From the NCBI RefSeq assembly GCF_003018255.1, contig NZ_CP027440.1: DNA of 64,000 nucleotides; one strand, given 5' to 3'. A program made the position numbers and the translations under genes. Positions within the stretch are counted from its first letter, which is position 1; the number at the start of each line of letters is the position of its first letter. This document shows, piece after piece, positions 1,778-24,224 of the stretch. The DNA comes from Escherichia coli (GTDB lineage Bacteria; Pseudomonadota; Gammaproteobacteria; Enterobacterales; Enterobacteriaceae). A model generated the notes under the pieces. It searched no databases. It was not told the origin of the DNA and saw nothing but the letters and a program-made list of their open reading frames with translations.

Positions 1778-1784
1778 ACATAGC

Positions 1785-1815: not shown

Positions 1816-1822
1816 GAATGGA

Positions 1823-4040: not shown

Positions 4041-4261
4041 GATGGTTTCCCTTACCTTACAAATAATCAATGATGTTTTTATGTTTAAACGCAAAGCTTA
4101 ACGGTCAGGCAGGAGTGAGGCAAGTCTTGATAGTCAAGGGTAAAGAGATGCGGAAAATGAAGCCTTGATCCCTTTTTTCTTCTTTTTGTCTGCTATCAGC
4201 GTAGTTAGCCCTCTGGTATGATGAGTCCAACTTTGTTTTGCTGTGTTATGGAAATCTCACT

Positions 4262-4981: not shown

Positions 4982-5000
4982 TCCCTTCCGTTTAAAAAGC

Positions 5001-5030
5001 AAACCCCTCAAACGAGGGGTTTTGTTGTTT
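5001..5030. terminator. Bidirectional rho-independent terminator between fadR and ycgB
   Basis: Hairpin CCCCTC-AAAC-GAGGGG followed by TTTTGTTGTTTTT on plus and a T-rich run on minus. Confidence 0.7.
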
Positions 5031-6563
5031 TTACAGATTTCCCATTCTCGGCGGGCAACGTTCCAGCAACTCGACGCTGCCGTCTTCGTTTTGCTGTTCC
5101 AGCATTACATCAAATCCCCACAGGCGATGCACATGCTTCAGTACTTCTTTGCGCCCCCGATCTAGCGGTGCGCGATTATGTGGAATGTAACGCAGCGTCA
5201 GCGAACGGTCGCCGCGCAAATCCACGTTCCAGATCTGAATATTCGGCTCCAGATTACTTAAATTATATTGAGACGATAACCGGTTACGGATCTCCCGATA
5301 ACCTTCTTCATTATGAATAGCGGAAATCTCCAGATAATTATGCCGATCGTCATCCAGCACGGTGAAGAAGCGGAAATCACGCATCACTTTCGGTGACAGG
5401 AACTGGCTGATAAAACTCTCATCTTTGAAATCACGCATCGCGAAATGCAGCGTTTCCAGCCAGTCGGAACCGGCGATATCCGGGAACCAGTATTTGTCTT
5501 CTTCCGTTGGCGACTGACAAATCCGTTTAATATCCTGGAACATGGCGAACCCGAGGGCATACGGGTTGATGCCGCTGTACCACGGGCTGTTATAGGGTGG
5601 CTGGAAGACCACATTGGTGTGGCTGTGCAAAAACTCCAGCATAAAACGTTCCGTTACTTTCCCTTCATCATACAGATGGTTAAGGATGGTGTAGTGCCAG
5701 AAGGTCGCCCAGCCTTCGTTCATCACCTGAGTCTGTTTTTGCGGATAAAAATACTGGCTCACCTTACGCACAATACGCAGAATTTCACGCTGCCATGATT
5801 CCAGCAGTGGCGCATTTTTCTCCATAAAATAGAGCAGGTTTTCTTGTGGCTCGGACGGATAGCGGCGCGCTTCAGCAACCGTTTTCTCTTCCTCGCGCTT
5901 CGGCAGGGTACGCCAGAGCATATTGACCTGACTTTGCAGATACTCTTCGCGACTTTTCTGCCGGGCTTTCTCTTCTTGCAGCGAGATTTTTTGCGGGCGT
6001 TTGTACCGGTCCACGCCGTAGTTCATCAGCGCGTGGCACGAGTCCAGAAGCCGTTCTACTTCATCAACGCCATAACGTTCTTCGCACTCGGTAATATATT
6101 TACGGGCAAAAATCAGATAATCGACAATCGAACTGGCGTCGGTCCAGCTACGGAATAAGTAATTGTTTTTGAAGAAAGAGTTATGCCCATAGCAGGCGTG
6201 TGCCATCACCAGCGCTTGCATGGTAATGGTGTTTTCTTCCATCAGGTAAGCGATACACGGGTTAGAGTTAATGACGATTTCATAGGCCAGTCCTTGCTGA
6301 CCGTGCTTATACAGCCGTTCAGTCTCGATAAACTTTTTACCGAATGACCAGTGCGGATAGTTAATTGGCATGCCGACGCTGGAGTAGGCATCCATCATCT
6401 GTTCTGAGGTTATCACTTCAATCTGGTGCGGGTAGGTATCCAGCCGGTAGAGTTTCGCCACCCGGTCTATCTCTGCCAGATAAACATCCAGCAGGTCGAA
6501 CGTCCAGTCGGGTCCATCGCTCAAACGTGTGGTGTCCTTATTCATAGAATCGATCGTCGCCAT
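5031..6563 (-). CDS. ycgB: YcgB, SpoVR-family protein
   Basis: 510-aa ORF recognised as the conserved enterobacterial YcgB at its usual place between fadR and dadA. Confidence 0.85.
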   Translation of the reverse strand: MATIDSMNKDTTRLSDGPDWTFDLLDVYLAEIDRVAKLYRLDTYPHQIEVITSEQMMDAYSSVGMPINYPHWSFGKKFIETERLYKHGQQGLAYEIVINSNPCIAYLMEENTITMQALVMAHACYGHNSFFKNNYLFRSWTDASSIVDYLIFARKYITECEERYGVDEVERLLDSCHALMNYGVDRYKRPQKISLQEEKARQKSREEYLQSQVNMLWRTLPKREEEKTVAEARRYPSEPQENLLYFMEKNAPLLESWQREILRIVRKVSQYFYPQKQTQVMNEGWATFWHYTILNHLYDEGKVTERFMLEFLHSHTNVVFQPPYNSPWYSGINPYALGFAMFQDIKRICQSPTEEDKYWFPDIAGSDWLETLHFAMRDFKDESFISQFLSPKVMRDFRFFTVLDDDRHNYLEISAIHNEEGYREIRNRLSSQYNLSNLEPNIQIWNVDLRGDRSLTLRYIPHNRAPLDRGRKEVLKHVHRLWGFDVMLEQQNEDGSVELLERCPPRMGNL

Positions 6564-6779
6564 ACGCGCACCTCATTGTTGTCGGCGCTCTCTGTGTGGA
6601 GCACCTCATTTCAAGCATAGAACACCTGTTAAAAACCGCGTCGCCGGAGAATTTTTTTCTTTGCGATTTCTTATTATCAGAGTGCCACTAATCCGCTTCT
6701 GAACGGAATTTTATGCTGGATAAAAAGGGCGTTCAGCAGGAGATACTAAAGACGCCATATTGCCGCAGAGTCAGGGAGA

Positions 6780-6795
6780 TGTGAGCCAGCTCACC
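6780..6795 (+). promoter_or_regulatory. Candidate CRP site in dadAX promoter region
   Basis: TGTGAGCCAGCTCACC resembles the CRP consensus TGTGA-N6-TCACA, about 100 nt upstream of dadA; dadAX is known to be CRP-activated. Confidence 0.55.
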
Positions 6796-6847
6796 ATAAA
6801 AAAGCCGCATGTTGAATAATATTTTCAACTGAGTTATCAAGATGTAA

Positions 6848-8191
<1,344 letters not shown>

Positions 8192-8200
8192 GGAAACGAG

Positions 8201-9271
8201 ATGACCCGTCCGATACAGGCCAGCCTCGATCTGCAGGCATTAAAACAGAATCTGTCCATTGTCCGCCAGGCTGCGCCGTACGCGCGCGTCTGGTCGGTGG
8301 TAAAAGCAAACGCTTACGGGCACGGTATTGAGCGTATCTGGAGCGCGCTCGGGGCCACCGATGGCTTTGCATTGCTTAATCTGGAAGAGGCAATAACGTT
8401 ACGTGAGCGCGGCTGGAAAGGACCGATCCTGATGCTGGAAGGATTTTTCCATGCTCAGGATCTGGAGATTTATGACCAGCACCGCCTGACCACCTGCGTA
8501 CACAGCAACTGGCAGCTCAAAGCACTGCAAAATGCGCGGCTAAAAGCACCGTTGGATATTTATCTTAAAGTGAACAGTGGGATGAATCGGTTGGGCTTCC
8601 AGCCCGATCGCGTGCTTACCGTCTGGCAGCAGTTGCGGGCGATGGCGAATGTTGGCGAAATGACCCTGATGTCGCATTTTGCCGAGGCGGAACATCCTGA
8701 TGGAATTTCCAGCGCGATGGCGCGTATTGAGCAGGCGGCGGAAGGGCTGGAGTGTCGGCGTTCGTTGTCCAATTCGGCGGCGACTCTGTGGCACCCGGAA
8801 GCGCATTTTGACTGGGTTCGGCCTGGCATTATTTTGTATGGCGCTTCGCCGTCCGGTCAGTGGCGTGATATCGCCAATACCGGATTACGTCCGGTGATGA
8901 CGCTAAGCAGTGAGATTATTGGTGTCCAGACGCTAAAAGCGGGCGAGCGTGTGGGCTACGGCGGTCGCTATACTGCGCGCGATGAACAGCGAATCGGCAT
9001 TGTCGCCGCAGGATACGCCGACGGTTATCCGCGCCATGCGCCTACCGGTACTCCTGTTTTAGTGGACGGCGTGCGCACCATGACGGTGGGGACCGTCTCG
9101 ATGGATATGCTGGCGGTTGATTTAACGCCTTGCCCGCAGGCGGGGATTGGTACGCCGGTTGAGCTGTGGGGCAAGGAGATCAAAATTGATGATGTCGCCG
9201 CCGCTGCCGGAACGGTGGGCTATGAGTTGATGTGCGCGCTGGCGTTACGTGTCCCGGTTGTGACAGTGTAA
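8201..9271 (+). CDS. dadX: Catabolic alanine racemase
   Basis: 356-aa ORF containing the PLP-lysine motif [10 protein letters not shown]; operonic with dadA. Confidence 0.95.
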
Positions 9272-9327
9272 CTTGTTATCGCTGGATGCGACCAGCGTCG
9301 TATCCAGCGTTACAAAACACATTAAAC

Positions 9328-11112
<1,785 letters not shown>

Positions 11113-11158
11113 TTAGCGGCAGAGACAGCGTTTTACTTAGCCCTGAAGCGTGATTTTT

Positions 11159-12784
<1,626 letters not shown>

Positions 12785-12785
12785 A

Positions 12786-13520
12786 TCAGTCGCGCACTTT
12801 GTCCGCTTTCTCCCGAGCTTCCCGCTCGAGAGAGAAAATAATCCGTTGTAATTGCCGCTCCACCGTCGGGCTGACGTTAAGAAAACGGAAGCTCAGACGG
12901 GGAGTGGTGATGGTTTCATTCCTGCCATCAATCACTTTGCGCTCGCTGATGGAGATTAACTGGGCGTCAAAGTGAAAAACACCCCATTGCCCCATGTTGA
13001 CTTCAATCTGAGCGAAGCGCATGCCTTCGTGCAATCCGGCAGGCTTTGTTGTTTCCAGTAATGCGCCCATGCCGCCTAACGACAAATCATACAGGCGGAA
13101 ACGTAACGTACTGTTATCCGCCAGTTTGGTCTGGCAAAAATATGGCGGATGGAGTGGGGCGGTGATGCGGAAATATCGGCGTCGTTGTACAAACCATAAG
13201 GTGGGAGGCGGTACGGTAATAAATGCCGGAAGCTGCAAGTATTCACTCTGCTGTAGTTGTTCAACAGTAAACTCGACTTTCGCACCCTGAGTTTCGGCGG
13301 TAATGGTAATGTGCTGCGCCTTTAGCACGGCGATGTTGTCTTCGGCCCGGCTGCCGAAATCCAGCACCAGTTTATCCGGAGTTATTGCCAGTATTTTGCT
13401 GATCAGCTGCCCGCCATTCCAGCTAATACGCAAAGGAATTGCGGCTTTGTGCAAATCGCGTAACACGCCCAGGACGGCTAACGGATTTTGTTTCAGGAAC
13501 TGCTCATGGTAATGACTCAC
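12786..13520 (-). CDS. ycgR: YcgR, c-di-GMP-binding flagellar brake protein (PilZ domain)
   Basis: 244-aa ORF with the PilZ motif region RRRYFRI and DLSLGG. Confidence 0.9.
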   Translation of the reverse strand: MSHYHEQFLKQNPLAVLGVLRDLHKAAIPLRISWNGGQLISKILAITPDKLVLDFGSRAEDNIAVLKAQHITITAETQGAKVEFTVEQLQQSEYLQLPAFITVPPPTLWFVQRRRYFRITAPLHPPYFCQTKLADNSTLRFRLYDLSLGGMGALLETTKPAGLHEGMRFAQIEVNMGQWGVFHFDAQLISISERKVIDGRNETITTPRLSFRFLNVSPTVERQLQRIIFSLEREAREKADKVRD

Positions 13521-13720
13521 GCGGAAAAACTCCTGACTGACAAACTGTCTTAGGTTTATCGGTCACAGTTAACAAAACTTAATACAAATGCGTGAATGTT
13601 TTTTACATGTCGTTCTTAAATCAGCCGACATACGCCCAGCATCGATCCCGCCCTTGCCTATACTTAGAGCGTTGACGTAAGCATTTCTTGCGTCCGATTC
13701 ATCGAAACGAGGGCCTGAAC

Positions 13721-13975
13721 ATGGGAATTATTGCCTGGATTATTTTTGGCCTGATAGCCGGCATAATCGCCAAGCTAATCATGCCGGGACGTGATGGTGG
13801 TGGATTTTTCCTGACCTGTATTCTCGGGATAGTCGGTGCGGTGGTCGGCGGCTGGCTGGCGACCATGTTTGGCATTGGCGGCTCCATCAGTGGTTTTAAT
13901 TTGCACAGCTTCCTGGTGGCGGTGGTGGGCGCTATCCTGGTGCTGGGCGTATTCCGCCTTCTGCGAAGAGAATAA
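13721..13975 (+). CDS. ymgE: YmgE, transglycosylase-associated (GlsB/YeaQ/YmgE family) small membrane protein
   Basis: 84-aa glycine-rich membrane peptide MGIIAWIIFGLIAGIIAKLIMPGRDGGGF; start trimmed from the track ORF. Confidence 0.85.
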   Translation: MGIIAWIIFGLIAGIIAKLIMPGRDGGGFFLTCILGIVGAVVGGWLATMFGIGGSISGFNLHSFLVAVVGAILVLGVFRLLRRE

Positions 13976-13987
13976 GATTTTCATAAG

Positions 13988-14020
13988 GCGGATAGCGATA
14001 CATATGCCGCTATCCGCTTT
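13988..14020 (+). terminator. Hairpin terminator after ymgE at the left border of the accessory operon
   Basis: Perfect 10-bp stem GCGGATAGCG / CGCTATCCGC with a 10-nt loop, followed by TTT; lies between the ymgE stop and the receptor gene stop. Confidence 0.55.
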
Positions 14021-14024
14021 CACA

Positions 14025-15995
14025 TCAGAACGTATACTCGATACCTGCCCAGAAATTGCGACCTTCTTCAATAAACCCTTCACTGTAGGCATATTTGGTA
14101 TCAAACAGGTTATTGACCGACGCATTGACGCTGAAGCCATGACCTAAGGTGTAATCGGCTCGAATGTGAGTCACCGCAAAACCGGCGGCTTTTTGTGAAC
14201 CGTCACTGTTGCTGTAGCTGGAGGAACGCGCCTCTTCCGACAGCGTTACGCTTAACGGCTCCCACGGTTTGAGAGTCATCCATGCGGTCATTGTCTGCGT
14301 TGGCAGATCGGTTATCTTGCCGATGTCTTTGCGTTTGGCATCAGCGTGGATCAGGGCGTAGCTCAATCCTACATCCAGTATATTGCTGATTTTCCCCTTA
14401 ATACCGGCATCCAGACCGCTGTAATCCACCGTGCCGCTGTTCTGATTTTGAATGGTATCGGCATCGATATTGTGCGAGAGGATGGCATCACTCACCCGGT
14501 TATAGTAAACGCTGACCTCAAACCCCCAGTCGTGCGTGAAGGCACCATTCCAGGTTAAATCCACCCCGCGCGCGCGTTCCGGCTTGAGCTGCGGGTTAAC
14601 AATCGCTATCTGGTTATACGCAGGTTTGGACGTGGTATAGCGTTCTTTCAGCGTCGGAAAGCGTGTGCGGTCATAGTACGAAAGCGCCAGCGTGTCTTCA
14701 TTGGCAAAGTGGTATTTCCCCATCACCTGCCAGTTAAAAGCTGACTGATTGTTGTCGTCATAATGGGTGATACTGCCATCTTTCTCATGTTTTTTCGCTT
14801 CTACGCTATCGCGCCAGTCATAGCTGATTCCAGCCACGACATCGACATTATCGGCAGCAGCCCATTGATATTCACTGGCGAGCGACCAGGTACGATCTTC
14901 ATAGCGATCGTAAGCGGCGTGCGGCGCACCTTTTTCCCGGTGTACGTCATCTTTCCAGTTAACGGCAAACGACAGCAGATCGTTTTCACGCACATCGGCT
15001 GCCAGTTGTAACCCGGCACCGTCGCTGTAATCGGAATAATGGCTGTAGCTGCCTTTTTTATTTTTCAAATCAGCCAGCGAGTTGTACATCATCAGCGTAT
15101 TTTCAAAGGTATCGCGATACAGCCGACTTTTCAGGGTAAAACGATCGTTTAGTTGGGTCGTTCCCTGATAATAAAAACTTTCTTTGTCATACTCTGGCCA
15201 CTGCCAGTAGCGTGATTTTTGACCACTATTTCCACTGTATGGCGGATTATCTTTTTCACCATCCTGCTTAATGTAAGTCAATGTGTATTCATCGTTTTCG
15301 CGTGGTGTAAAACCGAGCTTCACAATGCCGCGTTTATCATCAGCCGATGAATTAATCATCTTGCCGTGTTTGCCTGCAATATCATTATTTACACCATGCG
15401 GCAGGCCGAGAAAATCCTGCTTTAGCTGGCTACCGCTGACTTGCAAATACCCCAGATCGCTGCTGGCGGCAAATGAAGCATGCATATCGTAGGCATTGTC
15501 CTGGCTACGGCTCCATCCCTGGCGATATCCCAGATTTGCTTCCAGAGGTTTTGTTGGCTTCTGGGTGGTGATATTAATGGCTCCGCCCATCTGATTAGGC
15601 CCCTGAAGCAGCGACGAATACCCTTTGGAAACTTCAACTGCCCCCAAATTGTTGGTCAGAATCCGCGCCAGATCGAGGTTGCCGTCATAGGGAACATAAA
15701 TGGGCACACCGTCGAAATAGACTGGCACCTGACGACTATCAAAGCCACGAACTTTGACCTGTTCTTCGTTGCGGCTACCTGACTTTTGCAGCACCACGCC
15801 GGGGACGACACTTAATGCCTGAGCGACATTCTGTTTATCCAGGGCCTTCATGGTGGGGTGATCGAGAACGGTGGTCGTCGTCGATGATACCGGACTGGAC
15901 CATACGGTCAGCGTGTCACTCTCCTGAGCCGCTAAGGCCTGCTGGGTAAAGGCAAGTGATAATGCTGTGCAGAGATAACGTTTTTTGAGTCTCAT
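14025..15995 (-). CDS. TonB-dependent outer-membrane receptor (accessory, not in K-12 layout)
   Basis: About 656 aa with signal peptide MRLKKRYLCTALSLAFTQQALA, TonB-box-like DTLTVWS near the mature N-terminus, and a C-terminal aromatic residue (…AGIEYTF); start set to the second Met. Confidence 0.85.
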   Translation of the reverse strand: MRLKKRYLCTALSLAFTQQALAAQESDTLTVWSSPVSSTTTTVLDHPTMKALDKQNVAQALSVVPGVVLQKSGSRNEEQVKVRGFDSRQVPVYFDGVPIYVPYDGNLDLARILTNNLGAVEVSKGYSSLLQGPNQMGGAINITTQKPTKPLEANLGYRQGWSRSQDNAYDMHASFAASSDLGYLQVSGSQLKQDFLGLPHGVNNDIAGKHGKMINSSADDKRGIVKLGFTPRENDEYTLTYIKQDGEKDNPPYSGNSGQKSRYWQWPEYDKESFYYQGTTQLNDRFTLKSRLYRDTFENTLMMYNSLADLKNKKGSYSHYSDYSDGAGLQLAADVRENDLLSFAVNWKDDVHREKGAPHAAYDRYEDRTWSLASEYQWAAADNVDVVAGISYDWRDSVEAKKHEKDGSITHYDDNNQSAFNWQVMGKYHFANEDTLALSYYDRTRFPTLKERYTTSKPAYNQIAIVNPQLKPERARGVDLTWNGAFTHDWGFEVSVYYNRVSDAILSHNIDADTIQNQNSGTVDYSGLDAGIKGKISNILDVGLSYALIHADAKRKDIGKITDLPTQTMTAWMTLKPWEPLSVTLSEEARSSSYSNSDGSQKAAGFAVTHIRADYTLGHGFSVNASVNNLFDTKYAYSEGFIEEGRNFWAGIEYTF

Positions 15996-16020
15996 AGAAT
16001 AAATTCCGTTTAACAAAGAA

Positions 16021-16875
16021 TTAAATAGAGGCTGCGGGTTGCAGACTGACTTTAATGTCAGCTGGTGTCGCGTAATAAGGCGCGGAGGTAATAAAAAGGC
16101 GAATGCCGCAGTCGAGGTAATTTTTGAGTGTTGTCAGATTAATTCCGCCGGTCAGAGCCAGCGTGCAGTGAGGAGCCAGCGACGGTGCTATTTGCGCAAT
16201 TTCAGTTGCCTGTTGCGGATTAAATTTGTCGAGCTGAAGTACGTCTGGTTGCGCGCGTAACGCGGCGATTGCCTCTTTCGGCGTGTCGGCTTCAACAACT
16301 ATTTTCTTCTCGGGTGCGTGGCGGCGTAACTGATTGATTGCGCCTGACCAGTCCTGATTGTCATGAAGAAAATGACGGTGGTTGGCAAACAATAATATGG
16401 TTTCCGCACATCCGGCACGATGAATCAGTCCTCCGGCAGCCAGAATTGCCTGCGAGGCCAGTAAGCGGGTGCCCGGAATTGCTTTTCGGGTGCAGGCGAT
16501 ATTGCCATCAGGGTAACGTTCACGAAGTAACGCCAGCATTTGAGCGAGATAATCAGAAACACCGCAACTCCACTCCAGCACATTCTGGACTGCCTTCCAT
16601 CCCTGATGAAGTGCTGCGGCATTACCCTGCGCACGGATTAGCCGCTGACCCGCGTTCGCTTGTGAACCGTCGCTGACTGCGTCATCAATAGTTAATCCCA
16701 GCGTAGTTAACATCTTACACGCGACAGAAATTCCGCTGACGCAGCCGCCCTGACGGTGAAAAAACTCTATATAGCCATGCTGGTGTCCAATATTTAATGC
16801 TCGCGTGGTCAGGTCACCGCCCTGGATATCTTCCAGAAGTAACGCATCGATTTGTGCCTGAGAAAGGAAAATCAT
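16021..16875 (-). CDS. ModD / NadC-like (quinolinate phosphoribosyltransferase family) protein
   Basis: 284-aa ORF with blocks that align by eye to E. coli NadC (LLEDIQGGDLTT; TRKAIPGTRLLASQAILAAGG..NHR; VEADTPKEA..LQLDKF; LALTGGINLTTL); 4-nt ATGA overlap with the upstream methyltransferase gene. Confidence 0.75.
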   Translation of the reverse strand: MIFLSQAQIDALLLEDIQGGDLTTRALNIGHQHGYIEFFHRQGGCVSGISVACKMLTTLGLTIDDAVSDGSQANAGQRLIRAQGNAAALHQGWKAVQNVLEWSCGVSDYLAQMLALLRERYPDGNIACTRKAIPGTRLLASQAILAAGGLIHRAGCAETILLFANHRHFLHDNQDWSGAINQLRRHAPEKKIVVEADTPKEAIAALRAQPDVLQLDKFNPQQATEIAQIAPSLAPHCTLALTGGINLTTLKNYLDCGIRLFITSAPYYATPADIKVSLQPAASI

Positions 16876-17684
16876 CGCAGTGCCTCTTGCGGTACGCTAT
16901 CCCACCAGATGAGCGCCCAGTCGCGGCTGGCAGGGGCGAGGGCACGAGCATCTTGTTGTTGATACCAGCGATATAACCGCTCACGCTCATCGTCGTTAAG
17001 CGCGCCCAGACTCCAGCTGACGTTCTGCTCAAAACGTTCCCAGGTGCTGTTATCCTGTTGGCAATTTTGTCCGCGGATAAAATCAACGTGAGCATAAATT
17101 CCCATCTGATACAGGACGTTGAGCGCAAAGATATAGTTGGGTAATTCGACCACTTCCCGACCAGCCGCCCGCTGAATGGCTGGAGAGACGAACGAGGTGC
17201 TGACCAGATGAGTCGTATAGACGCGAAGCCGTGCCTGATTATTCAGTTTGCTCATTGCCTGGCGCATATCAGCCACCAGAGTGGAGCGGGAAGCCACGGC
17301 AATATCGCAGCGTGGCAGGTCACTCCAGTCCTCTTCCCAGGCGCGCTGGATCCAGTGGACATTGTCTGCCTTTAGCGCGGCGGCGCGACGGGCGGCAACG
17401 TTCAGCATCCCCTGACTGTAATCAACGCCATAAATCGTCGTGAGTTTGTCCGCCAGCGCCAGCGATACGGTACCCGGTCCGCAGCCCATATCGAATAAGG
17501 TTTGCGCGCCTTGCAGGTCAATTTTTGAGGTCAGTTGTTGCAGGTAGCTGTCCGTCGGCGAGGCGCAATTTTCCGCCATTTTTTCCGCCCGTTGATCCCA
17601 GTGATCCGGCGTTTTTTCTGTGCGATGGGCCAGCCTGAGTTGCTGAAGGTAAAGGTCTGCAAAATCAATATCGTCAATGAGCAT
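16872..17684 (-). CDS. Class I SAM-dependent methyltransferase
   Basis: 270-aa ORF with Rossmann motif I LFDMGCGPGTVSLALA and a downstream acidic motif (VDYSQGML); operonic between the ABC ATPase and the ModD-like gene. Confidence 0.75.
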   Translation of the reverse strand: MLIDDIDFADLYLQQLRLAHRTEKTPDHWDQRAEKMAENCASPTDSYLQQLTSKIDLQGAQTLFDMGCGPGTVSLALADKLTTIYGVDYSQGMLNVAARRAAALKADNVHWIQRAWEEDWSDLPRCDIAVASRSTLVADMRQAMSKLNNQARLRVYTTHLVSTSFVSPAIQRAAGREVVELPNYIFALNVLYQMGIYAHVDFIRGQNCQQDNSTWERFEQNVSWSLGALNDDERERLYRWYQQQDARALAPASRDWALIWWDSVPQEALR

Positions 17685-17693
17685 GATTTTTCC

Positions 17694-18452
17694 TTAGTGC
17701 TTAATTGCAGAGAGGTGATGGTGAATCTGGTCGGCAGAAACCCGGTACAGGGCAGCCAGTTTTTTCGTTGTTAACTGTTCGGTCGGTAAGCCTTGTGTTA
17801 CTCGTCCATCTGGCTCTACCTGGATAATGCTGTCGGCAATGGCGTTTGCATGGAGCGGATGATGAGTCGACATTAACATTGTCATGCCGTTATTTTTGAG
17901 CTGCGCCAGCGTGTCCAGAAGTTGGATCTGATGACCGAAATCGAGGCTAGAGGCAGGCTCATCCAGTAATAACAAGCGCGGTTGCTGGACGAGTGCACGG
18001 GCGATTAAAGCCAGCTGACGTTCACCGCCGCTAAGCGTATTCCAGCGTCGTGTCGCCAGATGCAAAATGCCCAGCTTTTCCAGTTGCTCCGTTGCTTTCA
18101 GGCGTTCTTGCTTACCGGGAACGGAAAAAGCGCCTATGGTGGGGGCCTGGCCCATCAACACCATATCCAGCACACTAAAAGCAAAAATGCCGTCGTGCGC
18201 CTGCGGCACCCAGGCAATAGCCTGCGCGCGCTGGCGATGGCTGAGTGTCTGCACAGGGAGGCTATCCAGTAAGATCTCGCCTTTTAATAACGGTATAACG
18301 CCAAGAATGGAGCGCATGAGTGTGGTTTTGCCGCAACCATTGGCTCCTAACAGACAACAAATTGTTCCTTGCGACAGGGTGAAGGACACGTCGCGTAGCA
18401 CCGGATGGCGGGAGTAACCCAGAGACGCATGACGGACGGCAAGCAAAGTCAC
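17694..18452 (-). CDS. ABC transporter ATP-binding protein (FecE/FepC-like)
   Basis: Walker A GANGCGKTT, ABC signature LSGGERQ and Walker B LLLLDEP are present; start assigned to GTG in a GTGA overlap with the permease stop (the track ORF is extended to 18590). Confidence 0.8.
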   Translation of the reverse strand: MTLLAVRHASLGYSRHPVLRDVSFTLSQGTICCLLGANGCGKTTLMRSILGVIPLLKGEILLDSLPVQTLSHRQRAQAIAWVPQAHDGIFAFSVLDMVLMGQAPTIGAFSVPGKQERLKATEQLEKLGILHLATRRWNTLSGGERQLALIARALVQQPRLLLLDEPASSLDFGHQIQLLDTLAQLKNNGMTMLMSTHHPLHANAIADSIIQVEPDGRVTQGLPTEQLTTKKLAALYRVSADQIHHHLSAIKH

Positions 18453-19429
18453 TGGCGACCTCCGCGTAACAACAAAAACAGGAAAAACGGTGCGCCAACA
18501 AAAGCGGTCAGAATGCCAAGTGGGATTTCTGTTGTTCCAATGCTGCGTGCCAGCGTATCGGTAAGCAGGAGCAGAATCGCGCCAGTACACATTGCCATGG
18601 GCAACAGCTGCTGATGGTTATGACCGGTCAACAAGCGGGCAATGTGCGGAACGACCAGGCCGACCCAACCAATTATGCCCGCTATTGCTACCGTGCTGGC
18701 GGTGATGAGTGTGGCACAGACAATCAATCCAAAGCGCAGACGTGTCACGTTCAGTCCCAGCGAACGGGCTTCGTCGTCGGAAAGCGTGAGTAAATTCATG
18801 CGCCAGCGGAGAAAAAACAGGGGCAAGGAGCCTATGAGAATGATCGGTGCAGCATAGCAGAGATCGCGTAAGGTCACGGTGGACAGCCCCCCCAGCAACC
18901 AGAAGGTAATTGACGGTAACTGGGTATAAGGATCGGCCAGCGTTTTTATTAGCGATATCCCCGCTCCGCACAACGTTCCTAACGCAATGCCTACCAGCAC
19001 CAGGGTTAAGATCGGATCGTGGCGGGTCACCCGACGCGTAATCAACCAGACGCCCGCGACCACCATCAGCCCGCCGCAAAATGCGTACAGCTGGATGTAA
19101 ACAATGGATAATCCCCACAGGATTGCCGCGCAGGCACCAAGTCCGGCACCGGCGGAGACGCCTAAAATATCCGGTGACACTAAGGGATTACGGAACATTC
19201 CCTGATAGGTGGTTCCGGCCCCTGCCAGCGCCGCGCCCAGAAACAGCGCAGCAAGAATACGCGGCACGCGGATTTGCCAGAAGACAATTTGTTCCTGCAC
19301 AGTAACATTTTCTTGACGAAGAATGAGCGCCAGCAGTTGCTGCATATCGAGATGATAAGCCCCACTTACGGCGGCAAAAGTGATACTGATAGCTGCCAGC
19401 AGCAAAATACATCCGTTTACGGTTCTCAT
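18449..19429 (-). CDS. ABC transporter permease (FecCD/BtuC family)
   Basis: 326-aa polytopic membrane protein typical of iron-chelate/B12-type permeases; start overlaps the stop of the upstream binding-protein gene by 1 nt. Confidence 0.8.
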   Translation of the reverse strand: MRTVNGCILLLAAISITFAAVSGAYHLDMQQLLALILRQENVTVQEQIVFWQIRVPRILAALFLGAALAGAGTTYQGMFRNPLVSPDILGVSAGAGLGACAAILWGLSIVYIQLYAFCGGLMVVAGVWLITRRVTRHDPILTLVLVGIALGTLCGAGISLIKTLADPYTQLPSITFWLLGGLSTVTLRDLCYAAPIILIGSLPLFFLRWRMNLLTLSDDEARSLGLNVTRLRFGLIVCATLITASTVAIAGIIGWVGLVVPHIARLLTGHNHQQLLPMAMCTGAILLLLTDTLARSIGTTEIPLGILTAFVGAPFFLFLLLRGGRQ

Positions 19430-20451
19430 TAGCTCGCCACCAATTTTTGATAGTCGGCGTCACTTAATGGGCAATGCCAGAACAGTTGGGCGTAATGCTG
19501 CATGTCACTTTTAAACTGGCGATTGATGGCGGGATCCAGCCAGGCGTGAAGTCTGCGTAATCCCAGAAGACGGTTGATTCCCGGCGGGGCATCCAGCCAG
19601 CCAAAGGGCAGGCCACTTAAAAATAAGATGCGTTGTTCCGCAACCGCTTTCACGCCCTGCCAGAGAGGATCACGACGAATAAAATCTGCAGTAACGGCCT
19701 CCTGAACCAGAATAATATCCGGCTGCCAGCGCAGGAGATTTTCCATGGAAACCTGTGTCAGACCGTGGCGATCGGCTATTTGCGCGACGTTGTGCAAACC
19801 TAATAATTCCGCCGCCTCGGTATGCAACGAACCCTGTAAGCCCGTTTCCAGCCCTCGAGGACCGCGCGCAGCATAAAAGCTGAGATTAGCGGCGGGTGAG
19901 GTGGCGAATGCCTGAGCTTCACCAACGAAGCGGCTGGCGAGATTGGCTTGTTCTGCGGCGCGGTGCTCTTCGCCTAACGTTTTGCCAAGCGTTGTTAACT
20001 GTTCTGCTGATTGTTCCAGTTTCCCGTTAAGCAATAACCAGGGTATTTGTGTCTGTTCGCTAACCTGCCGTGCCTGGGAGATCCAGGTTTCATCCGTATT
20101 GCCGCAATCAACGACCAAATCGGGATGTAACGCCATAAGCCCTTCCAGCGAGAGTGTACTGGCGCGCCCGGCGAGTCGTCCCAGCCTGGGGAACTGGCGA
20201 ATGTGCTCTGGCAATGGAATTAATGCCTGACGGGCAAAATCAAAAGAGGAAAAACCGACCATTTTTTCTGGCGCGACAGCCAGCAATAGTAAATCGGCGG
20301 GCGCGCCTGCGCTGACGATGCGTGTAATGTTTTGGGCTTCGGGAAGCGTCAGTGAGGCCCAGAATTTGACTGATTGTGCAAAGGACGGCAGATGATGCAG
20401 GAACAATGTCGACGCAAGAATCTGTGTAAACCTCCGTCTGGTTAGTGACAT
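19429..20451 (-). CDS. Periplasmic substrate-binding protein (class III, FecB/BtuF-like)
   Basis: Signal peptide MSLTRRRFTQILASTLFLHHLPSFA with a twin-arginine-like TRRRF; start chosen at the Met preceded by AGGA 7 nt upstream; first gene of the operon. Confidence 0.75.
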   Translation of the reverse strand: MSLTRRRFTQILASTLFLHHLPSFAQSVKFWASLTLPEAQNITRIVSAGAPADLLLLAVAPEKMVGFSSFDFARQALIPLPEHIRQFPRLGRLAGRASTLSLEGLMALHPDLVVDCGNTDETWISQARQVSEQTQIPWLLLNGKLEQSAEQLTTLGKTLGEEHRAAEQANLASRFVGEAQAFATSPAANLSFYAARGPRGLETGLQGSLHTEAAELLGLHNVAQIADRHGLTQVSMENLLRWQPDIILVQEAVTADFIRRDPLWQGVKAVAEQRILFLSGLPFGWLDAPPGINRLLGLRRLHAWLDPAINRQFKSDMQHYAQLFWHCPLSDADYQKLVAS

Positions 20452-20463
20452 AAGTAATATCCT

Positions 20464-20482
20464 GATAATTAAAACCGCTATA
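20464..20482 (-). promoter_or_regulatory. Candidate Fur box upstream of the accessory transport operon
   Basis: GATAATTAAAACCGCTATA matches about 13 of 19 positions of the Fur consensus GATAATGATAATCATTATC by hand alignment; a TTGACA hexamer lies further upstream on the operon strand. Confidence 0.3.
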
Positions 20483-20787
20483 TACTTACACATATAGCGA
20501 AAAAGATCATGTTTGATGTCAAAATTTGTCTAAAGAGACGGAATGATTTGCTTGTTGCTTAAATAACACTTTGTTCCACAAGAAAATTGTCAGGGAGAAT
20601 GGGGAGTGGGGGAAAATATAAATAGAGGTGTAATGATTAACAAGTTGATAAAATAAAATTAAAATCTTCTCTAATAAAAGAAAATAAAGGCATAGACCGT
20701 AGAAAGAGTGGTATTTGGTATTTCGTGGTGAAGAAAGAGCAATGCCAATTTTATGCACGTAATGGCATTGCTCGATATACAGTAAAG

Positions 20788-22485
20788 TTAAGGCGTAGGT
20801 TCCGCCTCATTTTGTTTTACCGGCTGTGTTGTTGATTCACTGAGTGGACGCGTCGCCGGAACATTGTCGCACGGTTGCTCTTTCGGGCAGATCAAATCCA
20901 GCATTTTCAGCGTCACGCCATTGGTCCAGCCAAAGCCATCCTGTAATGGATATTCGCCACCGCCGCCCCCTGTTCCGGTGGTGCTGACATCATATTTTTC
21001 CACCAGCTTTTTCTCCCGGTCATAGGTGTGCTGAACATTGGTCAGGAAGTGCCAGCTAATGTCCATCGCCACCTCTTTTTGCCCGTAGTTTTGTAATCCT
21101 TCTGTCGCGACCCACTGCAACGGTGCCCAGCCGTTTGGCGCATCCCATTGTTGCCCACTTTTCACCGACGTGGTGTTCAGGCCGCCTGGTTGCAGCAGAT
21201 GTGTTTTCGTCGCCGTCGCCATTTTGCTGGCGCGATCTTTCGCTGCCGCATTGACGTACAGCGGGAACAGGGCGGCCGCGGTTAACTGATTGCGCACTTT
21301 ATGACTTTTCAGGTCGTAATCGGCATACCAGCCTTGTTGATCGTTCCACAGGTATTTTTCGATCCCTTTTTGACGGGCATTCGCCAGCGTTTCGTACTGG
21401 TTTGCCATCGCGTTATCTCCGGCAGCTTTGCTGGCGCGGGCGAGGATTTTTTCCATTTTAAACATCAGGCTGTTCAGATCGACCGGTACGATGCTGGTGG
21501 TGCGTAAGGTATTTAACTGCTGCGGATTGTCCATCCAGCGCGAGCTGAAATCCCAGCCAGACGCAGCGGCAGAGCGCAGGTCGCGGTAAATTTCAGTGGC
21601 AGGTCGATTCGGATTGCTTTTGGCGGTGGCAATATCTTCCACCCATGACTCTGGTCGTGGCGTATCGCGATCGTCCCAGTAGCGGTTGAGAAGGGTACCA
21701 TCCTGAAGTTTGACAACGCGTTTTTCCTGTTGTCCGGCTTGCAGGTTTTCAACACCGTCCATCCAGTAAGCATATTCTTTTTGCATTTGCGGCAGGTATT
21801 GCTTCAACGCGGCATCGCCTTCATGCTGCGCCAGTAACTCTACCATCAGGGCAAAGAATGGCGGTTGTGAGCGGCTTAAATAGTAACTGCGGTTGCCGTT
21901 GGGAATATGCCCGTAAGTGTCTATTTCATGAGCAAAATTGGCCACCATATCCGCGACTTTATCCCAGTGACCACTTTCGGCAAGCCCTAACATGGTGAAG
22001 TAACTGTCCCAGTAATATACCTCGCGAAAACGTCCGCCCGGCACAACATAAGGTTCCGGCAGCGGTAACAGAGAATCCCATTTTTCGGTATTTTCGGTAG
22101 AACGCGTTAATACCGGCCAAAGTCCGTCAATATGTTCGCGTAGTGATTGCCCCTCTGGCGGAACATATTTCTCGCCCTCTTTCGGCAGGGTGAAATTGAC
22201 GTTAACGAAATGGCGTAGATCAAATCCGCTCTGGTTTTGCTGCATCCGATAATCAGCAAGGATCATCAGCGGATCGCTGTTCGGCACGGCATCGGCAAAG
22301 GTTTTTTGGTCCGGAAAAAGTTTGGCGTTTTGCACATCATTAAACAGCGGCCCTAATAAAATATCAGGCGGCTGTGGCGTTACCGGTGTTTCTTCTGCCT
22401 GCACCGATAGCGCAGCGAAACACAAAAAGATGCAGGCTGGAATTAACGCCATTTTTAGCGGGCGAGAAGCTGCGGGGGATTTCAT
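20788..22485 (-). CDS. treA: Periplasmic trehalase
   Basis: 565-aa ORF recognised as TreA (signal peptide, then [22 protein letters not shown]). Confidence 0.95.
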
Positions 22486-22805
22486 CAATCATTCTCCTTT
22501 GGCGAAACCGAATAAAACGGTATTCAAGTATCAGAAAACCTTAGTTCAGGATCGCACTAGCTGCATGATCGAAATCTCATTCTGCGAACGGTCAGGCATT
22601 TTAGAAAAGGGAATTAAAGGGATAAATAACGTCGAAATAGAGTGATCAAATAACGTCTGTTTGTTAGCCAGCCAGCGGCGTTGGGTTCGCGATTAGCGCC
22701 GAAAAAATCATCATGATTTGGTAAAAAATATAACAGGTAGTTAAAAATCATCCGTGCAGAGTAAATAGCCGGATGGCATCAGAACGATGCCATCCGAACG
22801 GTGGT

Positions 22806-24224
22806 TTAACCCTGACGGCTGAAACGTTGCGTTTTAACGTCCAGCGTTAGCGTTTCTTCTGGTTGTATCGCATACAGTTTCTCACCCTGCTGGCAAATCC
22901 AGCCAATCCCCAGTTCACGGGCGATCAGGGCGCTGTGGGATAGCGGACTTCCGGCGCTAAGGCAGATACCTTTTACAACCGCCGGATCCAGTTGCAGTAT
23001 TGTGGAGGGATAGATGTTCTCCGCCAGTAGAATAGTTGGCGAGTTAAACTGCGGGAGTTCTTCTTTCGTTTGGGTCAGGTGGACCAGGGTGCGATGCAGA
23101 AGATCGTCCACATCAATATAGCGAGCCTGTAGATATTCATCATCCAGTTGCTGGTATTGCTGGCTAAGTTCTTTAAGAACTTGCTGCCAGGCATATTCTG
23201 CCGTGCAATGTTCATGCTGAAGGAGTTCGCTTGCCGCCGCCAGCAGTTCCGGATCATCTAACAGTGTATGGTGACCAGAAAAGATTGCGGCAATATCGTC
23301 AAGCCCGCTGGCTTCTGCTTTCGCTGTTAACGTCATCAGATCTAATAACGTGAAGTCAATGGCCTGGCGTAATCGTTCTTGTTCTTCATCCACGGTCAGG
23401 GTTGATTTTGCCTGTACCGTACATAAAACCGGTTGATAATAAAAGGCTTTACCCGAAACAGGCGGAACGGGACGCAGAATAGGTGGAGCAACTTCCTCCG
23501 TTTCACCAAAGTTATCTTCAGCCAGCTGACGGAAAGCGATCAGTGCCTCTTCAGCTTCTGGCCCTTTCGCAATCAGGCGCAGCGTATCGTTATAGCGAAC
23601 TTGTAGTAACGCAATCTGGTTAATACTCTCCGGTGTGACGCATTTGCCGTTTTTCTCCAGCAACATATCGGCATTAAATGTCGATAAGGTATAAACCAGC
23701 CGGGAGGCCGGACGTACATGCAGGCCGTTACGGTTTTTTATGACCACCGCCAGAGAACGGGCTTCTTCATCGTACGAAGGACATGTGTCAGAGATTTCAG
23801 TGTTGGAGGAGGGTAAACCCAGTTGTTCACGTTTGGCTTCCAGCGCATGCATGGCGTCAAAGATCACTTTGTCGATCTCCGCCCCCGAGGCCGCGCTAAC
23901 CGTTGCTGCCAGTGTACCTTCGACCAACGGCGCAGCACACAAACGTACTTTTGCGGCGATCTCGGGAGCCAGCAATTCCAGCGCAGTTTCAGCACTCAAT
24001 AATGCGCTTCCTATATCCATCATGACCAGCACATGGTCGGTATCGGCAACAGATTCGATGGCCTCCATCACTTTGACGGCATCGGTACCAATGGGATTTT
24101 GTGGATCGTCAATTCCCGCGGCAATGGCGATTTTACAATTATCACTCATTAACATCTGACGGGCTAATTCACCGACGCCTTCTCCCAGTCGGCTGCTATG
24201 TGAAACTATGACCAGGTTTACCAT
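22806..24224 (-). CDS. dhaM: DhaM, dihydroxyacetone kinase phosphotransfer subunit
   Basis: 472-aa multidomain protein MVNLVIVSHSSRLGEGV... recognised as DhaM (EIIA-Man-like, HPr-like and EI-like domains). Confidence 0.9.
   Translation of the reverse strand: MVNLVIVSHSSRLGEGVGELARQMLMSDNCKIAIAAGIDDPQNPIGTDAVKVMEAIESVADTDHVLVMMDIGSALLSAETALELLAPEIAAKVRLCAAPLVEGTLAATVSAASGAEIDKVIFDAMHALEAKREQLGLPSSNTEISDTCPSYDEEARSLAVVIKNRNGLHVRPASRLVYTLSTFNADMLLEKNGKCVTPESINQIALLQVRYNDTLRLIAKGPEAEEALIAFRQLAEDNFGETEEVAPPILRPVPPVSGKAFYYQPVLCTVQAKSTLTVDEEQERLRQAIDFTLLDLMTLTAKAEASGLDDIAAIFSGHHTLLDDPELLAAASELLQHEHCTAEYAWQQVLKELSQQYQQLDDEYLQARYIDVDDLLHRTLVHLTQTKEELPQFNSPTILLAENIYPSTILQLDPAVVKGICLSAGSPLSHSALIARELGIGWICQQGEKLYAIQPEETLTLDVKTQRFSRQG

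What the first reader, a model, noticed from the sequence alone, without database searches (positions are those of the whole stretch)
14025..20493. Accessory six-gene TonB-dependent uptake operon between ymgE and treA
Six co-directional minus-strand genes (substrate-binding protein, FecCD-type permease, ABC ATPase, SAM methyltransferase, ModD/NadC-like protein, TonB-dependent receptor) sit where I recall K-12 having only ycgY. Start/stop overlaps (ATGA, GTGA, 1-nt) and gaps of 9 and 25 nt indicate a single translationally coupled operon. A receptor plus ABC importer with two cytoplasmic enzymes is not one of the well-characterised E. coli siderophore, heme or B12 systems I can name, so the substrate is unknown.
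Basis: partly seen in the sequence, partly recalled or inferred. Interest (0 to 1): 0.85.

Follow-up and report, generated by a model that had tools for sequence, protein, structure and literature searches.

The report
Molybdenum-regulated TonB-dependent uptake operon
This six-gene operon, present in about 40% of E. coli but missing from K-12, is annotated as an iron importer, yet it carries the DNA switch of the molybdenum regulator ModE and most likely brings molybdenum (or tungsten) across both membranes, a route not described for enteric bacteria in the papers I could search.

Summary
Six intact, tightly packed minus-strand genes lie between ymgE and treA, where K-12 has only ycgY. In order they encode a binding protein, a FecCD permease, an ATPase, a SAM methyltransferase, ModD and a TonB-dependent receptor.

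The substrate is not a complete blank. A perfect palindrome, CGCTATAT-N8-ATATAGCG, sits 24 bp before the first gene. It matches the E. coli ModE consensus better than modA's own operator does. It is kept at that position in 52 of 54 homologous clusters from about 15 genera. A second copy precedes the receptor gene wherever that gap is long, and no comparable site occurs elsewhere in 1.03 Mb of flanks.

The closest solved relatives of the permease and ATPase are H. influenzae MolB and MolC, a molybdate/tungstate importer that also sits next to modD. ModD is elsewhere linked to ModABC-type genes and Mop proteins. The receptor family lies beside moaA1-narGHJI in P. aeruginosa. I found no credible Fur box and no riboswitch.

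The cluster occupies the same site in E. albertii and Citrobacter and has normal GC content, so K-12-type strains probably lost it.

Best reading: a ModE-repressed, TonB-dependent molybdenum/tungsten acquisition system. The exact cargo and the roles of the methyltransferase and ModD remain unknown. I found no paper describing it.

The parts
20476..20499 (.). Predicted ModE operator: the perfect palindrome CGCTATAT-N8-ATATAGCG, 24 bp upstream of the SBP start codon. An invariant TTGA(C/T) motif that looks like a -35 element lies about 19 bp further upstream.
   Evidence: this is the only match in the 64-kb window, with 0 mismatches. It matches 17 of 20 specified positions of the published E. 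coli consensus ATCGNTATATA-N6-TATATANCGAT (PMC545781). Positive control: the K-12 modA operator CGTTATATTGTCGCCTACATAACG has 1 mismatch to the same pattern and lies 19 bp before the modA ATG. Conservation across genera.
19429..20451 (-). Periplasmic substrate-binding protein (340 aa, Peripla_BP_2 / class III) with a twin-arginine signal motif (LTRRRFTQ).
   Evidence: The closest structure is 4pag, whose ligand is unknown. The closest characterised structure is MolA (HI1472, 3psa), with Foldseek E 1.5e-15 and TM-score 0.68-0.70. The RR motif is conserved in most genera.
18449..19429 (-). FecCD-family permease of a type II ABC importer (326 aa).
   Evidence: The best solved relative is H. influenzae MolB (HI1471, 2nq2_A) at 8.9e-64 and 219 bits, ahead of FhuB (176), HmuU (168) and BtuC (147).
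17694..18452 (-). ABC ATPase (252 aa, GTG start overlapping the permease stop codon).
   Evidence: The best hit among bacterial importer ATPases is H. influenzae MolC (HI1470, 2nq2_C), 3.4e-36.
16872..17684 (-). Class I SAM-dependent methyltransferase (270 aa) of unknown substrate. The family appears confined to this kind of cluster.
   Evidence: It has the GCGPG SAM motif. The model has pLDDT 87.7. Fold matches are only to generic small-molecule methyltransferases (TM about 0.5). Among the 120 best of 340 homologues listed, all named ones are from Enterobacterales or Shewanella.
16021..16875 (-). ModD protein (284 aa), a NadC/quinolinate phosphoribosyltransferase-like protein of the 'molybdenum utilisation' family.
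   Evidence: TIGR01334 scores 501 bits against a cut-off of 179, while NadC scores 136 bits, below its cut-off of 198. One search aligns it with M. tuberculosis QAPRTase. Searches show its links to Mo transport genes in other genomes.
14025..15995 (-). TonB-dependent outer-membrane receptor (656 aa) with plug and barrel domains, a TonB-box-like DTLTVWS after the signal peptide, and a C-terminal Phe.
   Evidence: It reaches the curated cut-off of no NCBIfam family. Homologues are preceded by their own ModE box in 31 loci. In P. aeruginosa the homologue lies beside moaA1-narIJHG.
14049..20786 (.). The segment that is present or absent among E. coli strains. K-12-type genomes have 622 bp containing ycgY in its place.
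   Evidence: (blastn boundaries).
20737..20773 (-). Hairpin (11-nt arms) followed by a T-rich run, just downstream of the treA stop codon. It is probably the treA terminator, which would insulate the operon from treA read-through.
   Evidence: inverted repeat I1; sequence. That it acts as a terminator is an inference.

Best explanation
The operon is a molybdate-responsive, ModE-repressed, TonB-dependent system for acquiring molybdenum (and probably tungsten).

Proposed mechanism. When cytoplasmic molybdate is sufficient, ModE-molybdate binds the palindrome that overlaps the core promoter and shuts the operon off, as it does at modA. When molybdate is scarce, the operon is expressed. The outer-membrane receptor captures the Mo species and moves it into the periplasm using TonB-ExbBD energy. 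A binding protein with a twin-arginine (Tat-type) signal passes it to a MolB2C2-like type II ABC importer. ModD and the methyltransferase then act in the cytoplasm on the imported molybdate or on a by-product.

Shown here: gene content and coupling; the operator and its conservation across genera; homology of the transporter subunits to MolBC; genomic links of ModD and of the receptor family to Mo genes; absence of a credible Fur box and of any riboswitch.

Inferred: repression by ModE; Mo/W as cargo; TonB and Tat dependence.

Unknown: whether the cargo is free oxyanion or a complex, and the reactions of ModD and the methyltransferase.
For: (1) Operator. The perfect palindrome at 20476-20499 is the only match in the window. 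It fits the published ModE consensus. It matches better than the modA operator and has the same geometry: 24 bp versus 19 bp before the ATG.

(2) Phylogenetic footprint. In 54 homologous six-gene loci from about 15 genera, 52 have the box just upstream of the SBP gene. All 31 loci whose ModD-receptor gap exceeds about 110 bp have a second box before the receptor gene. All 66 sites with at most 1 mismatch, and 83 of 84 with at most 2, fall within these two intergenic windows (24.5 kb). Only one falls in the remaining 1.03 Mb. The flanking intergenic sequence is otherwise diverged.

(3) The same box precedes a ModABC-type operon with ModD in Yersinia alsatica. It also precedes stand-alone methyltransferase-ModD pairs in three of the four Edwardsiella loci, and ModD in Cedecea and Photobacterium.

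(4) The permease and ATPase are closest to MolB and MolC of the H. influenzae molybdate/tungstate importer. The SBP's closest characterised structure is MolA. That locus also carries modD and is repressed by molybdate (PMC3928620; PMC4031551).

(5) ModD is a full member of TIGR01334. It occurs fused to ModC/WtpC-like ATPases after the ATPase domain, where ModC normally carries a C-terminal domain (P0143, P0148). It also lies next to di-Mop molbindin genes. A Mop gene sits directly upstream of the cluster in Pectobacterium.

(6) Receptor family. The P. aeruginosa homologue (45% identity) lies beside moaA1 and narIJHG, with an AT-rich ModE-like palindrome 14 bp before its ATG. The Shewanella cluster has ModE boxes before both the SBP gene and the receptor gene.

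(7) No credible Fur box and no riboswitch.
Against: No experiment is available: no expression, binding or transport data for these genes in any paper I could find.

The SBP is only about 20% identical to MolA, and its conserved GWLDAPPGINR motif is not shared with MolA. Its closest structure, 4pag, has no known ligand. I could not check MolA's oxyanion-binding residues because the paper is not held.

MolA binds molybdate weakly (about 100 uM, as cited in PMC3928620). That fits poorly with a scavenging role and leaves open that this transporter class has a different true ligand.

TonB-dependent receptors and type II importers usually carry larger chelates, which argues against a bare oxyanion.

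A methyltransferase has no obvious role in molybdate uptake.

I could not identify a clear -10 hexamer.

ModE can also activate promoters, so the direction of regulation is inferred from position only.
Confidence: 0.7

Rival explanations
1. The system does belong to the ModE regulon, but the cargo is an organic or otherwise complexed Mo/W species rather than free oxyanion. Candidates are a catecholate-type molybdophore made by other microbes, a thiomolybdate, or a pterin-bound Mo compound. ModD (a phosphoribosyltransferase-like enzyme) and the methyltransferase would process the carrier to release the metal.
For: The architecture of receptor plus class III SBP plus type II importer is the one used for chelates and cofactors: Fhu, Fec, Hmu and Btu are the next-best relatives. 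MolA's reported affinity for free molybdate is low (PMC3928620). Two cytoplasmic enzymes are co-transcribed. ModD keeps most residues that align with the QAPRTase active site but replaces the lysine aligned to Mtb K172 with Phe, suggesting a different small-molecule substrate (residue roles recalled from memory).
Against: Methyltransferase-ModD pairs stand alone in Edwardsiella, and three of the four loci have their own ModE box. ModD also accompanies or is fused to ModABC-type oxyanion transporters, so these enzymes do not need this importer's cargo. In P. aeruginosa the receptor homologue has no dedicated SBP or importer beside it, so hand-over to ModA, and therefore free oxyanion, is the simpler reading. 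No biosynthesis or export genes for a chelator are nearby.
Confidence: 0.2
2. It is an iron-chelate (siderophore, haem or ferric citrate-like) uptake system, as the database names suggest ('iron ABC transporter substrate-binding protein', 'TonB-dependent siderophore receptor').
For: RefSeq product names. There are weak sub-threshold matches to FecB, FepB and IsdE for the SBP, and to the siderophore and haemin receptor subfamilies for the receptor.
Against: Every NCBIfam match to an iron family is far below its curated cut-off. The best Fur-box-like sites upstream have 6-7 mismatches of 19, which is the background rate in this window. The conserved regulatory element is a ModE box. The neighbours and fusions are Mo-related. 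No siderophore biosynthesis, esterase or reductase genes are present.
Confidence: 0.04
3. It imports a corrinoid or other tetrapyrrole, with the methyltransferase acting on that cofactor.
For: The permease's best NCBIfam match is a BtuC model, and the ATPase's include F420-0, haem and corrinoid transporter ATPases. The methyltransferase's best (weak) matches are a corrinoid-protein-associated methyltransferase and Mg-protoporphyrin methyltransferase.
Against: All these scores are far below the cut-offs. Rfam found no cobalamin or other riboswitch even at E<=1. The SBP is nearer to MolA than to BtuF or the haem binders. The ModE operator is unexplained by this reading.
Confidence: 0.03

Closest known systems
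Haemophilus influenzae MolBC-A (HI1470-HI1472) molybdate/tungstate type II ABC importer, with adjacent modD (HI1473)
   Same: The FecCD-type permease and the ATPase are the closest solved relatives of the E. coli proteins. Both have a class III SBP; MolA is the closest characterised structure. Both have modD next door, and molB is reported to be repressed by molybdate.
   Different: No outer-membrane receptor or methyltransferase is listed for the H. influenzae locus. The SBPs share only about 20% identity and not the family's GWLDAPPGINR motif. MolBC-A is described as a low-affinity system, whereas a TonB-dependent, ModE-repressed system would be expected to scavenge.
E. coli ModABC transporter and the ModE regulon
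   Same: Same operator type at the same distance from the first start codon, implying the same molybdate-dependent repression. Same presumed nutrient.
   Different: ModABC is a type I importer with a class II SBP and no outer-membrane component. The proteins are unrelated apart from the generic ATPase fold. E. coli's modABC has no ModD of this family and no methyltransferase.
TonB-dependent receptor plus type II ABC importer systems of E. coli (BtuB-BtuFCD, FhuA-FhuDCB, FecA-FecBCDE)
   Same: Overall three-compartment architecture. The receptor has a plug and a barrel, with a TonB box resembling BtuB's DTLVVTA (the BtuB motif is recalled from memory).
   Different: Regulation is by ModE, not by Fur, a B12 riboswitch or FecIR. 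There are two extra cytoplasmic enzymes. The receptor gene is last in the operon. No family cut-off is reached.
TonB-dependent receptors that take up metals other than iron (for example ZnuD for zinc, OprC/NosA for copper, FrpB4 for nickel; recalled from memory, not tested here)
   Same: Precedent for a TonB-dependent receptor under a metal-specific regulator importing a scarce non-iron metal.
   Different: Those carry cations. An anionic oxyanion cargo would be new. Sequence similarity to the TonB-copper model is weak (1e-13, far below cut-off).
P. aeruginosa T6SS-secreted ModA with outer-membrane IcmP (as cited in PMC11734730)
   Same: It is a described way to get molybdate across the outer membrane under limitation.
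   Different: The machinery is entirely different (a secreted binding protein and a protease-like outer-membrane protein) and it is not TonB-dependent. P. aeruginosa also carries a homologue of the receptor studied here.

Membership tests
ModE regulon (molybdate-responsive operons) | Operator matching the ModE consensus, placed at the promoter | tested here: met
   Perfect CGNTATAT-N8-ATATANCG at 20476-20499, matching 17 of 20 positions of the published consensus and lying 24 bp before the ATG. The modA control site has 1 mismatch and lies 19 bp before its ATG.
ModE regulon (molybdate-responsive operons) | Operator conserved in orthologous loci of other species | tested here: met
   52 of 54 loci have it. 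A second site precedes the receptor gene in 31 loci. All 66 sites with at most 1 mismatch lie in the two target intergenic windows.
ModE regulon (molybdate-responsive operons) | ModE binding and molybdate-dependent change in transcription | not testable with these tools
   Needs EMSA or footprinting, plus expression assays with and without molybdate and in a modE mutant.
MolBC-A type II molybdate/tungstate importer | Membrane and ATPase subunits most similar to MolB and MolC | tested here: met
   MolB is the top hit at 219 bits, against 176 or less for Fhu, Hmu and Btu. MolC is the top bacterial importer ATPase.
MolBC-A type II molybdate/tungstate importer | Cognate SBP of the MolA type | tested here: inconclusive
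   MolA is the closest characterised structure (TM 0.68-0.70; profile E 1.1e-15), but identity is about 20% and the conserved C-lobe motif differs. 4pag, of unknown ligand, is much closer.
MolBC-A type II molybdate/tungstate importer | SBP binds molybdate/tungstate and the transporter imports it | not testable with these tools
   Needs ITC or crystallography and uptake assays. MolA's binding residues could not be compared because the paper is not held.
TonB-dependent transporters | N-terminal plug plus 22-strand barrel domains | tested here: met
   Pfam Plug and TonB_dep_Rec_b-barrel on the homologues. NCBIfam TonB subfamily matches span the whole protein.
TonB-dependent transporters | TonB box near the mature N-terminus and a C-terminal aromatic residue | tested here: met
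   AQESDTLTVWSSP follows the signal peptide, and the protein ends ...GIEYTF. The consensus is recalled from memory.
Fur-regulated siderophore/haem uptake systems | Fur box at the promoter | tested here: not met
   The best upstream sites have 6-7 mismatches of 19, equal to the background rate in the window (36 sites with at most 6 mismatches).
Fur-regulated siderophore/haem uptake systems | Proteins reach the curated cut-off of a named iron-transport family | tested here: not met
   FecB scores 31.8 against a cut-off of 320 and FepB 24.3 against 205. The receptor subfamily models are also below cut-off.
Cobalamin (Btu) uptake | Cobalamin riboswitch in the leader | tested here: not met
   Rfam scan of 12500-23000 at E<=1 found only one noise hit, elsewhere.
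ModD (TIGR01334) | Score above the curated cut-off | tested here: met
   501.4 bits against a cut-off of 178.85, over the full length.
Quinolinate phosphoribosyltransferase NadC | Score above the NadC cut-off and a complete quinolinate-binding residue set | tested here: not met
   135.7 bits against a cut-off of 198.4. The residue aligned to Mtb K172 is Phe163, which is near-invariant in ModD. TRK, HR, Glu and Asp are kept (residue roles recalled from memory).

The most novel reading that the evidence does not exclude
The receptor family is the first TonB-dependent transporter dedicated to molybdenum or tungsten, and it imports the metal as a complexed species (a molybdophore, a thiomolybdate or a pterin-type Mo compound) rather than as free oxyanion. 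The cluster-specific methyltransferase and the phosphoribosyltransferase-like ModD would then carry out new chemistry that frees or conditions the metal for Moco synthesis. This would give gut Enterobacterales, including O157:H7, Proteus and Providencia, a competitive Mo-scavenging pathway.
Probability: 0.2. Interest if true: 0.9.

Novelty: new variant of a known kind. Interest (0 to 1): 0.72.

Why it matters
Molybdoenzymes (nitrate, DMSO and TMAO reductases, formate dehydrogenases) are used for anaerobic respiration. From memory, they drive the bloom of Enterobacteriaceae in the inflamed gut, and tungstate treatment is being explored to suppress it. A review I read states that molybdate crosses the outer membrane by diffusion through porins (PMC8264917). 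Reviews list ModABC, sulfate transporters and the low-affinity H. influenzae MolBCA as the uptake routes (PMC7759655).

A ModE-controlled TonB-dependent route would add an energised outer-membrane step to molybdenum uptake. It is present in about 40% of E. coli and across Citrobacter, Proteus, Providencia, Morganella, Serratia, Pectobacterium, Shewanella and (receptor only) P. aeruginosa. It could explain strain differences in fitness under Mo limitation and in tungstate sensitivity.

It would also correct a widespread 'iron transporter' annotation. It gives ModD, and a methyltransferase family that appears private to this cluster, a defined physiological context to test. Every step can be tested directly with standard genetics and metal analysis.

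Tried and rejected
- Fur regulation: I scanned for the 19-bp Fur consensus and found only background-level matches.
- Riboswitch control (B12, Moco): an Rfam scan at a permissive threshold found nothing.
- Foreign island: GC is 51.5% in the cluster against 51.1% in the window, and the locus is syntenic in E. albertii and Citrobacter. Rejected.
- ycgY as a remnant of the cluster: tblastx found no similarity beyond the shared flank.
- Methyltransferase-ModD fusion proteins as a Rosetta stone: the two long ModD proteins turned out to be ATPase-ModD fusions, not methyltransferase fusions.
- Assigning the methyltransferase by sequence or fold: NCBIfam, PDB sequence search and Foldseek on a good model gave only generic class I small-molecule methyltransferases. 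A profile search returned only Enterobacterales and Shewanella names among the 120 best hits listed.
- Locus search with a 41-sequence ModD alignment failed because it had no conserved stretch. It was repeated with 12 sequences.
- Literature: ten full-text searches on ModD, locus tags Z1961-Z1966, MolA/HI1472, ModE plus TonB, molybdophore, and the P. aeruginosa context found no description of this system. One EHEC transcriptome paper lists Z1966 among down-regulated genes of uncharacterised function; I assumed but did not verify that this tag belongs to the cluster.
- The MolA structure paper and the Studholme & Pau ModE-site paper are not held. MolA's ligand-binding residues therefore could not be compared. 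Curated regulon databases such as RegPrecise could not be consulted.
- A clean sigma-70 -10 hexamer could not be assigned.

Full report
**1. The observation**

The six minus-strand ORFs exist and are intact:

- SBP, 19429-20451
- FecCD permease, 18449-19429
- ATPase, 17694-18452
- class I SAM methyltransferase, 16872-17684
- ModD, 16021-16875
- TonB-dependent receptor, 14025-15995

RefSeq calls the same six genes in other E. coli strains.

K-12 MG1655 has ymgE-ycgY-treA at this site. Of 5426 complete E. coli genomes, 2139 carry the full cluster here, among them O157:H7. The rest carry ycgY.

One coordinate needs correcting. That ATG lies inside a regulatory palindrome and has no ribosome-binding site. 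The RefSeq start at 20451 is preceded by AGGA and gives a twin-arginine signal peptide.

**2. Not an acquired island**

- GC content of the variable segment (14049-20786) is 51.5%, against 51.1% for the whole window.
- In E. albertii and eight Citrobacter species the cluster sits between treA and ymgE-ycgR, as in E. coli. In Raoultella, Enterobacter and Intestinirhabdus, treA is also adjacent.
- K-12-type genomes are homologous up to window 14048. They therefore still hold the last 24 bp of the receptor gene.

Loss and replacement in K-12-type lineages is the simpler history.

**3. The regulatory element**

A perfect inverted repeat, CGCTATAT-N8-ATATAGCG, lies at 20476-20499, 24 bp upstream of the SBP start codon. 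It is the only match in the 64-kb window.

It fits the published E. coli ModE consensus ATCGNTATATA-N6-TATATANCGAT at 17 of 20 specified positions (PMC545781).

As a positive control I fetched the K-12 modA promoter. Its operator, CGTTATATTGTCGCCTACATAACG, matches my search pattern with one mismatch and ends 19 bp before the modA ATG. The new site is therefore a better match in the same position.

**4. Conservation of the element**

A ModD-based scan of one genome per species returned 80 loci. The six genes occur in the same order in 54 of the loci analysed. The genera are Escherichia, Citrobacter, Raoultella, Enterobacter, Klebsiella indica, Serratia, Symbiopectobacterium, Proteus, Morganella, Providencia, Pantoea, Erwinia, Pectobacterium and Affinibrenneria, plus a truncated Yokenella contig with five of the six genes.

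- 52 of the 54 loci have the box (at most 3 mismatches) just upstream of the SBP gene.
- All 31 loci whose ModD-receptor gap exceeds about 110 bp have a second box in front of the receptor gene.
- All 66 sites with at most 1 mismatch, and 83 of 84 with at most 2, fall in these two intergenic windows (24.5 kb). One site falls in the other 1.03 Mb.
- An alignment of eleven upstream regions shows the box and an invariant TTGA about 19 bp upstream of it. Both stand out from otherwise diverged sequence.

The loci are phylogenetically related, so these counts are not independent trials. The pattern nevertheless holds across orders.

The same box precedes:

- a ModABC-type operon with ModD in Yersinia alsatica;
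- ModD in Cedecea and Photobacterium;
- stand-alone methyltransferase-ModD pairs in three of the four Edwardsiella loci;
- both the SBP gene and the receptor gene of a Shewanella cluster that lacks ModD.

No credible Fur box and no riboswitch is present.

**5. The proteins**

*Permease and ATPase.* The permease's best solved relative is H. influenzae MolB (219 bits), ahead of FhuB (176), HmuU (168) and BtuC (147). The ATPase's best match among bacterial importer ATPases is MolC.

*SBP.* Its closest structure is 4pag from Sulfurospirillum, whose ligand is unknown. The closest characterised one is MolA, by sequence profile (1.1e-15) and by fold (TM 0.68-0.70) on a confident model with pLDDT 86.9. 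Identity to MolA is only about 20%, and the family's GWLDAPPGINR motif is absent from MolA.

MolBC-A imports molybdate and tungstate, is repressed by molybdate, and lies next to modD (PMC4031551; PMC3928620).

*ModD.* It is a full-length member of TIGR01334 and falls below the NadC cut-off. Aligned with M. tuberculosis QAPRTase, it keeps the TRK, HR, Glu and Asp positions but has Phe where Mtb has K172 (residue roles recalled from memory). Elsewhere:

- ModD is fused to ModC/WtpC-like ATPases, following the ATPase domain;
- it lies beside di-Mop molbindin genes;
- a Mop gene directly precedes the cluster in Pectobacterium.

*Methyltransferase.* It has a normal SAM-binding motif and folds confidently (pLDDT 87.7). 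It resembles only generic small-molecule methyltransferases. Among the 120 best of 340 homologues listed, all named ones come from Enterobacterales or Shewanella.

*Receptor.* It has a plug, a barrel, a TonB-box-like DTLTVWS and a terminal Phe. It reaches the cut-off of no curated family. Its P. aeruginosa homologue (45% identity, widespread in that species) lies next to moaA1 and narIJHG. An AT-rich ModE-like palindrome sits 14 bp before its ATG, in a GC-rich genome.

*SBP signal.* The twin-arginine motif is conserved in most genera.

**6. Most likely mechanism**

ModE-molybdate binds the palindrome, which overlaps the core promoter as at modA, and represses the operon. Under Mo scarcity the receptor takes up the Mo species using TonB energy. 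The SBP, which carries a Tat-type signal, delivers it to a MolBC-like importer. ModD and the methyltransferase then act in the cytoplasm.

What points towards free oxyanion:

- the two enzymes also occur without this transporter, and in Edwardsiella mostly with their own ModE box;
- ModD accompanies oxyanion-type ModABC transporters;
- the P. aeruginosa receptor has no dedicated importer beside it.

What keeps a complexed Mo species open:

- the chelate-type architecture of the system;
- the weak affinity reported for MolA;
- the presence of two enzymes.

I put about 0.7 on 'ModE-controlled TonB-dependent Mo/W acquisition'. Within that, free oxyanion is somewhat more likely than a complex. The iron and corrinoid readings are unlikely.

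**7. Comparison with what is known, and novelty**

It works like a hybrid of MolBC-A and a Btu/Fhu-type outer-membrane step under modA-type regulation. Reviews I could read describe outer-membrane passage of molybdate by porins. They list ModABC, sulfate transporters and MolBCA as the importers. P. aeruginosa is described as using secreted ModA with IcmP. Ten full-text searches found no description of a ModE-regulated TonB-dependent receptor or of this operon.

I rate it a new variant of a known kind, uncharacterised experimentally as far as I could find, and directly testable.

Noticed in passing
L087 9001-11525 (P. aeruginosa, GCA_049567555.1): A receptor homologue (45% identity; its 90%-identity cluster has 477 member sequences and was seen on 1000 or more contigs) lies between the dauBAR region and moaA1-ppiC-narIJHG. 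It is followed by an overlapping 182-aa ORF with a partial Oxidored_molyb domain, and a ModE-like palindrome CGTTATGTAAAAAAATGCATAACG sits 14 bp before its ATG.
   Followed up: partly
L088 5263-11004 (Shewanella): A variant cluster of SBP, permease, ATPase, methyltransferase and receptor that lacks ModD. It has ModE boxes before both the SBP gene and the receptor gene, so the methyltransferase tracks the transporter more closely than ModD does.
   Followed up: partly
L026, L043, L044, L051 (Edwardsiella) and L055 (Leminorella), about 9180-10850: The methyltransferase-ModD pair is present without the transporter or receptor genes. Three of the four Edwardsiella loci have a ModE box 55-80 bp upstream; L044 and Leminorella show none at up to 2 mismatches. 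E. tarda, by contrast, has receptor homologues.
   Followed up: partly
P0143 (524 aa) and P0148 (495 aa), from the representative-protein library: Natural fusions of a ModC/WtpC-like ABC ATPase domain to ModD, with ModD following the ATPase domain. This hints that ModD works at the cytoplasmic face of Mo transporters.
   Followed up: partly
L001 (E. coli O157:H7 strain Z885), locus 974-11972: In this O157:H7 genome the methyltransferase gene has an internal stop, treA is frameshifted, and ycgR is split by an IS3 element. The other five cluster genes are intact.
   Followed up: no
L006 (contig labelled 'MAG: Collinsella sp.'): A 3.2-kb contig binned as the actinobacterium Collinsella carries the ATPase, methyltransferase, ModD and receptor genes at 98-100% identity to E. 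coli. This is almost certainly a mis-binned E. coli fragment.
   Followed up: no
L017 (Citrobacter koseri NCTC10786), 6400-9200: The SBP, permease and ATPase matches are fragmentary while the methyltransferase, ModD and receptor are full length. This suggests decay of the transporter genes in this species, although a perfect ModE box is retained.
   Followed up: no
L045 and L046 (Affinibrenneria salicis, same scaffold): Two copies of the whole cluster, with identical match statistics, lie about 770 kb apart on one scaffold. In both, the ModE box is 252 bp upstream of the SBP gene rather than about 25 bp. This is either a duplication or an assembly artefact.
   Followed up: no
window 20475-20500: The generic terminator scan reports the ModE palindrome plus the following T-run as a 'terminator-like' hairpin on the minus strand. 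Its position just upstream of the SBP start codon and its conservation as a ModE box argue that it is an operator, not a terminator.
   Followed up: yes
window 20737-20773: An 11-nt perfect inverted repeat followed by a T-rich run lies just after the treA stop codon. It is probably the treA terminator, and it lies inside the segment that K-12-type strains lack.
   Followed up: no
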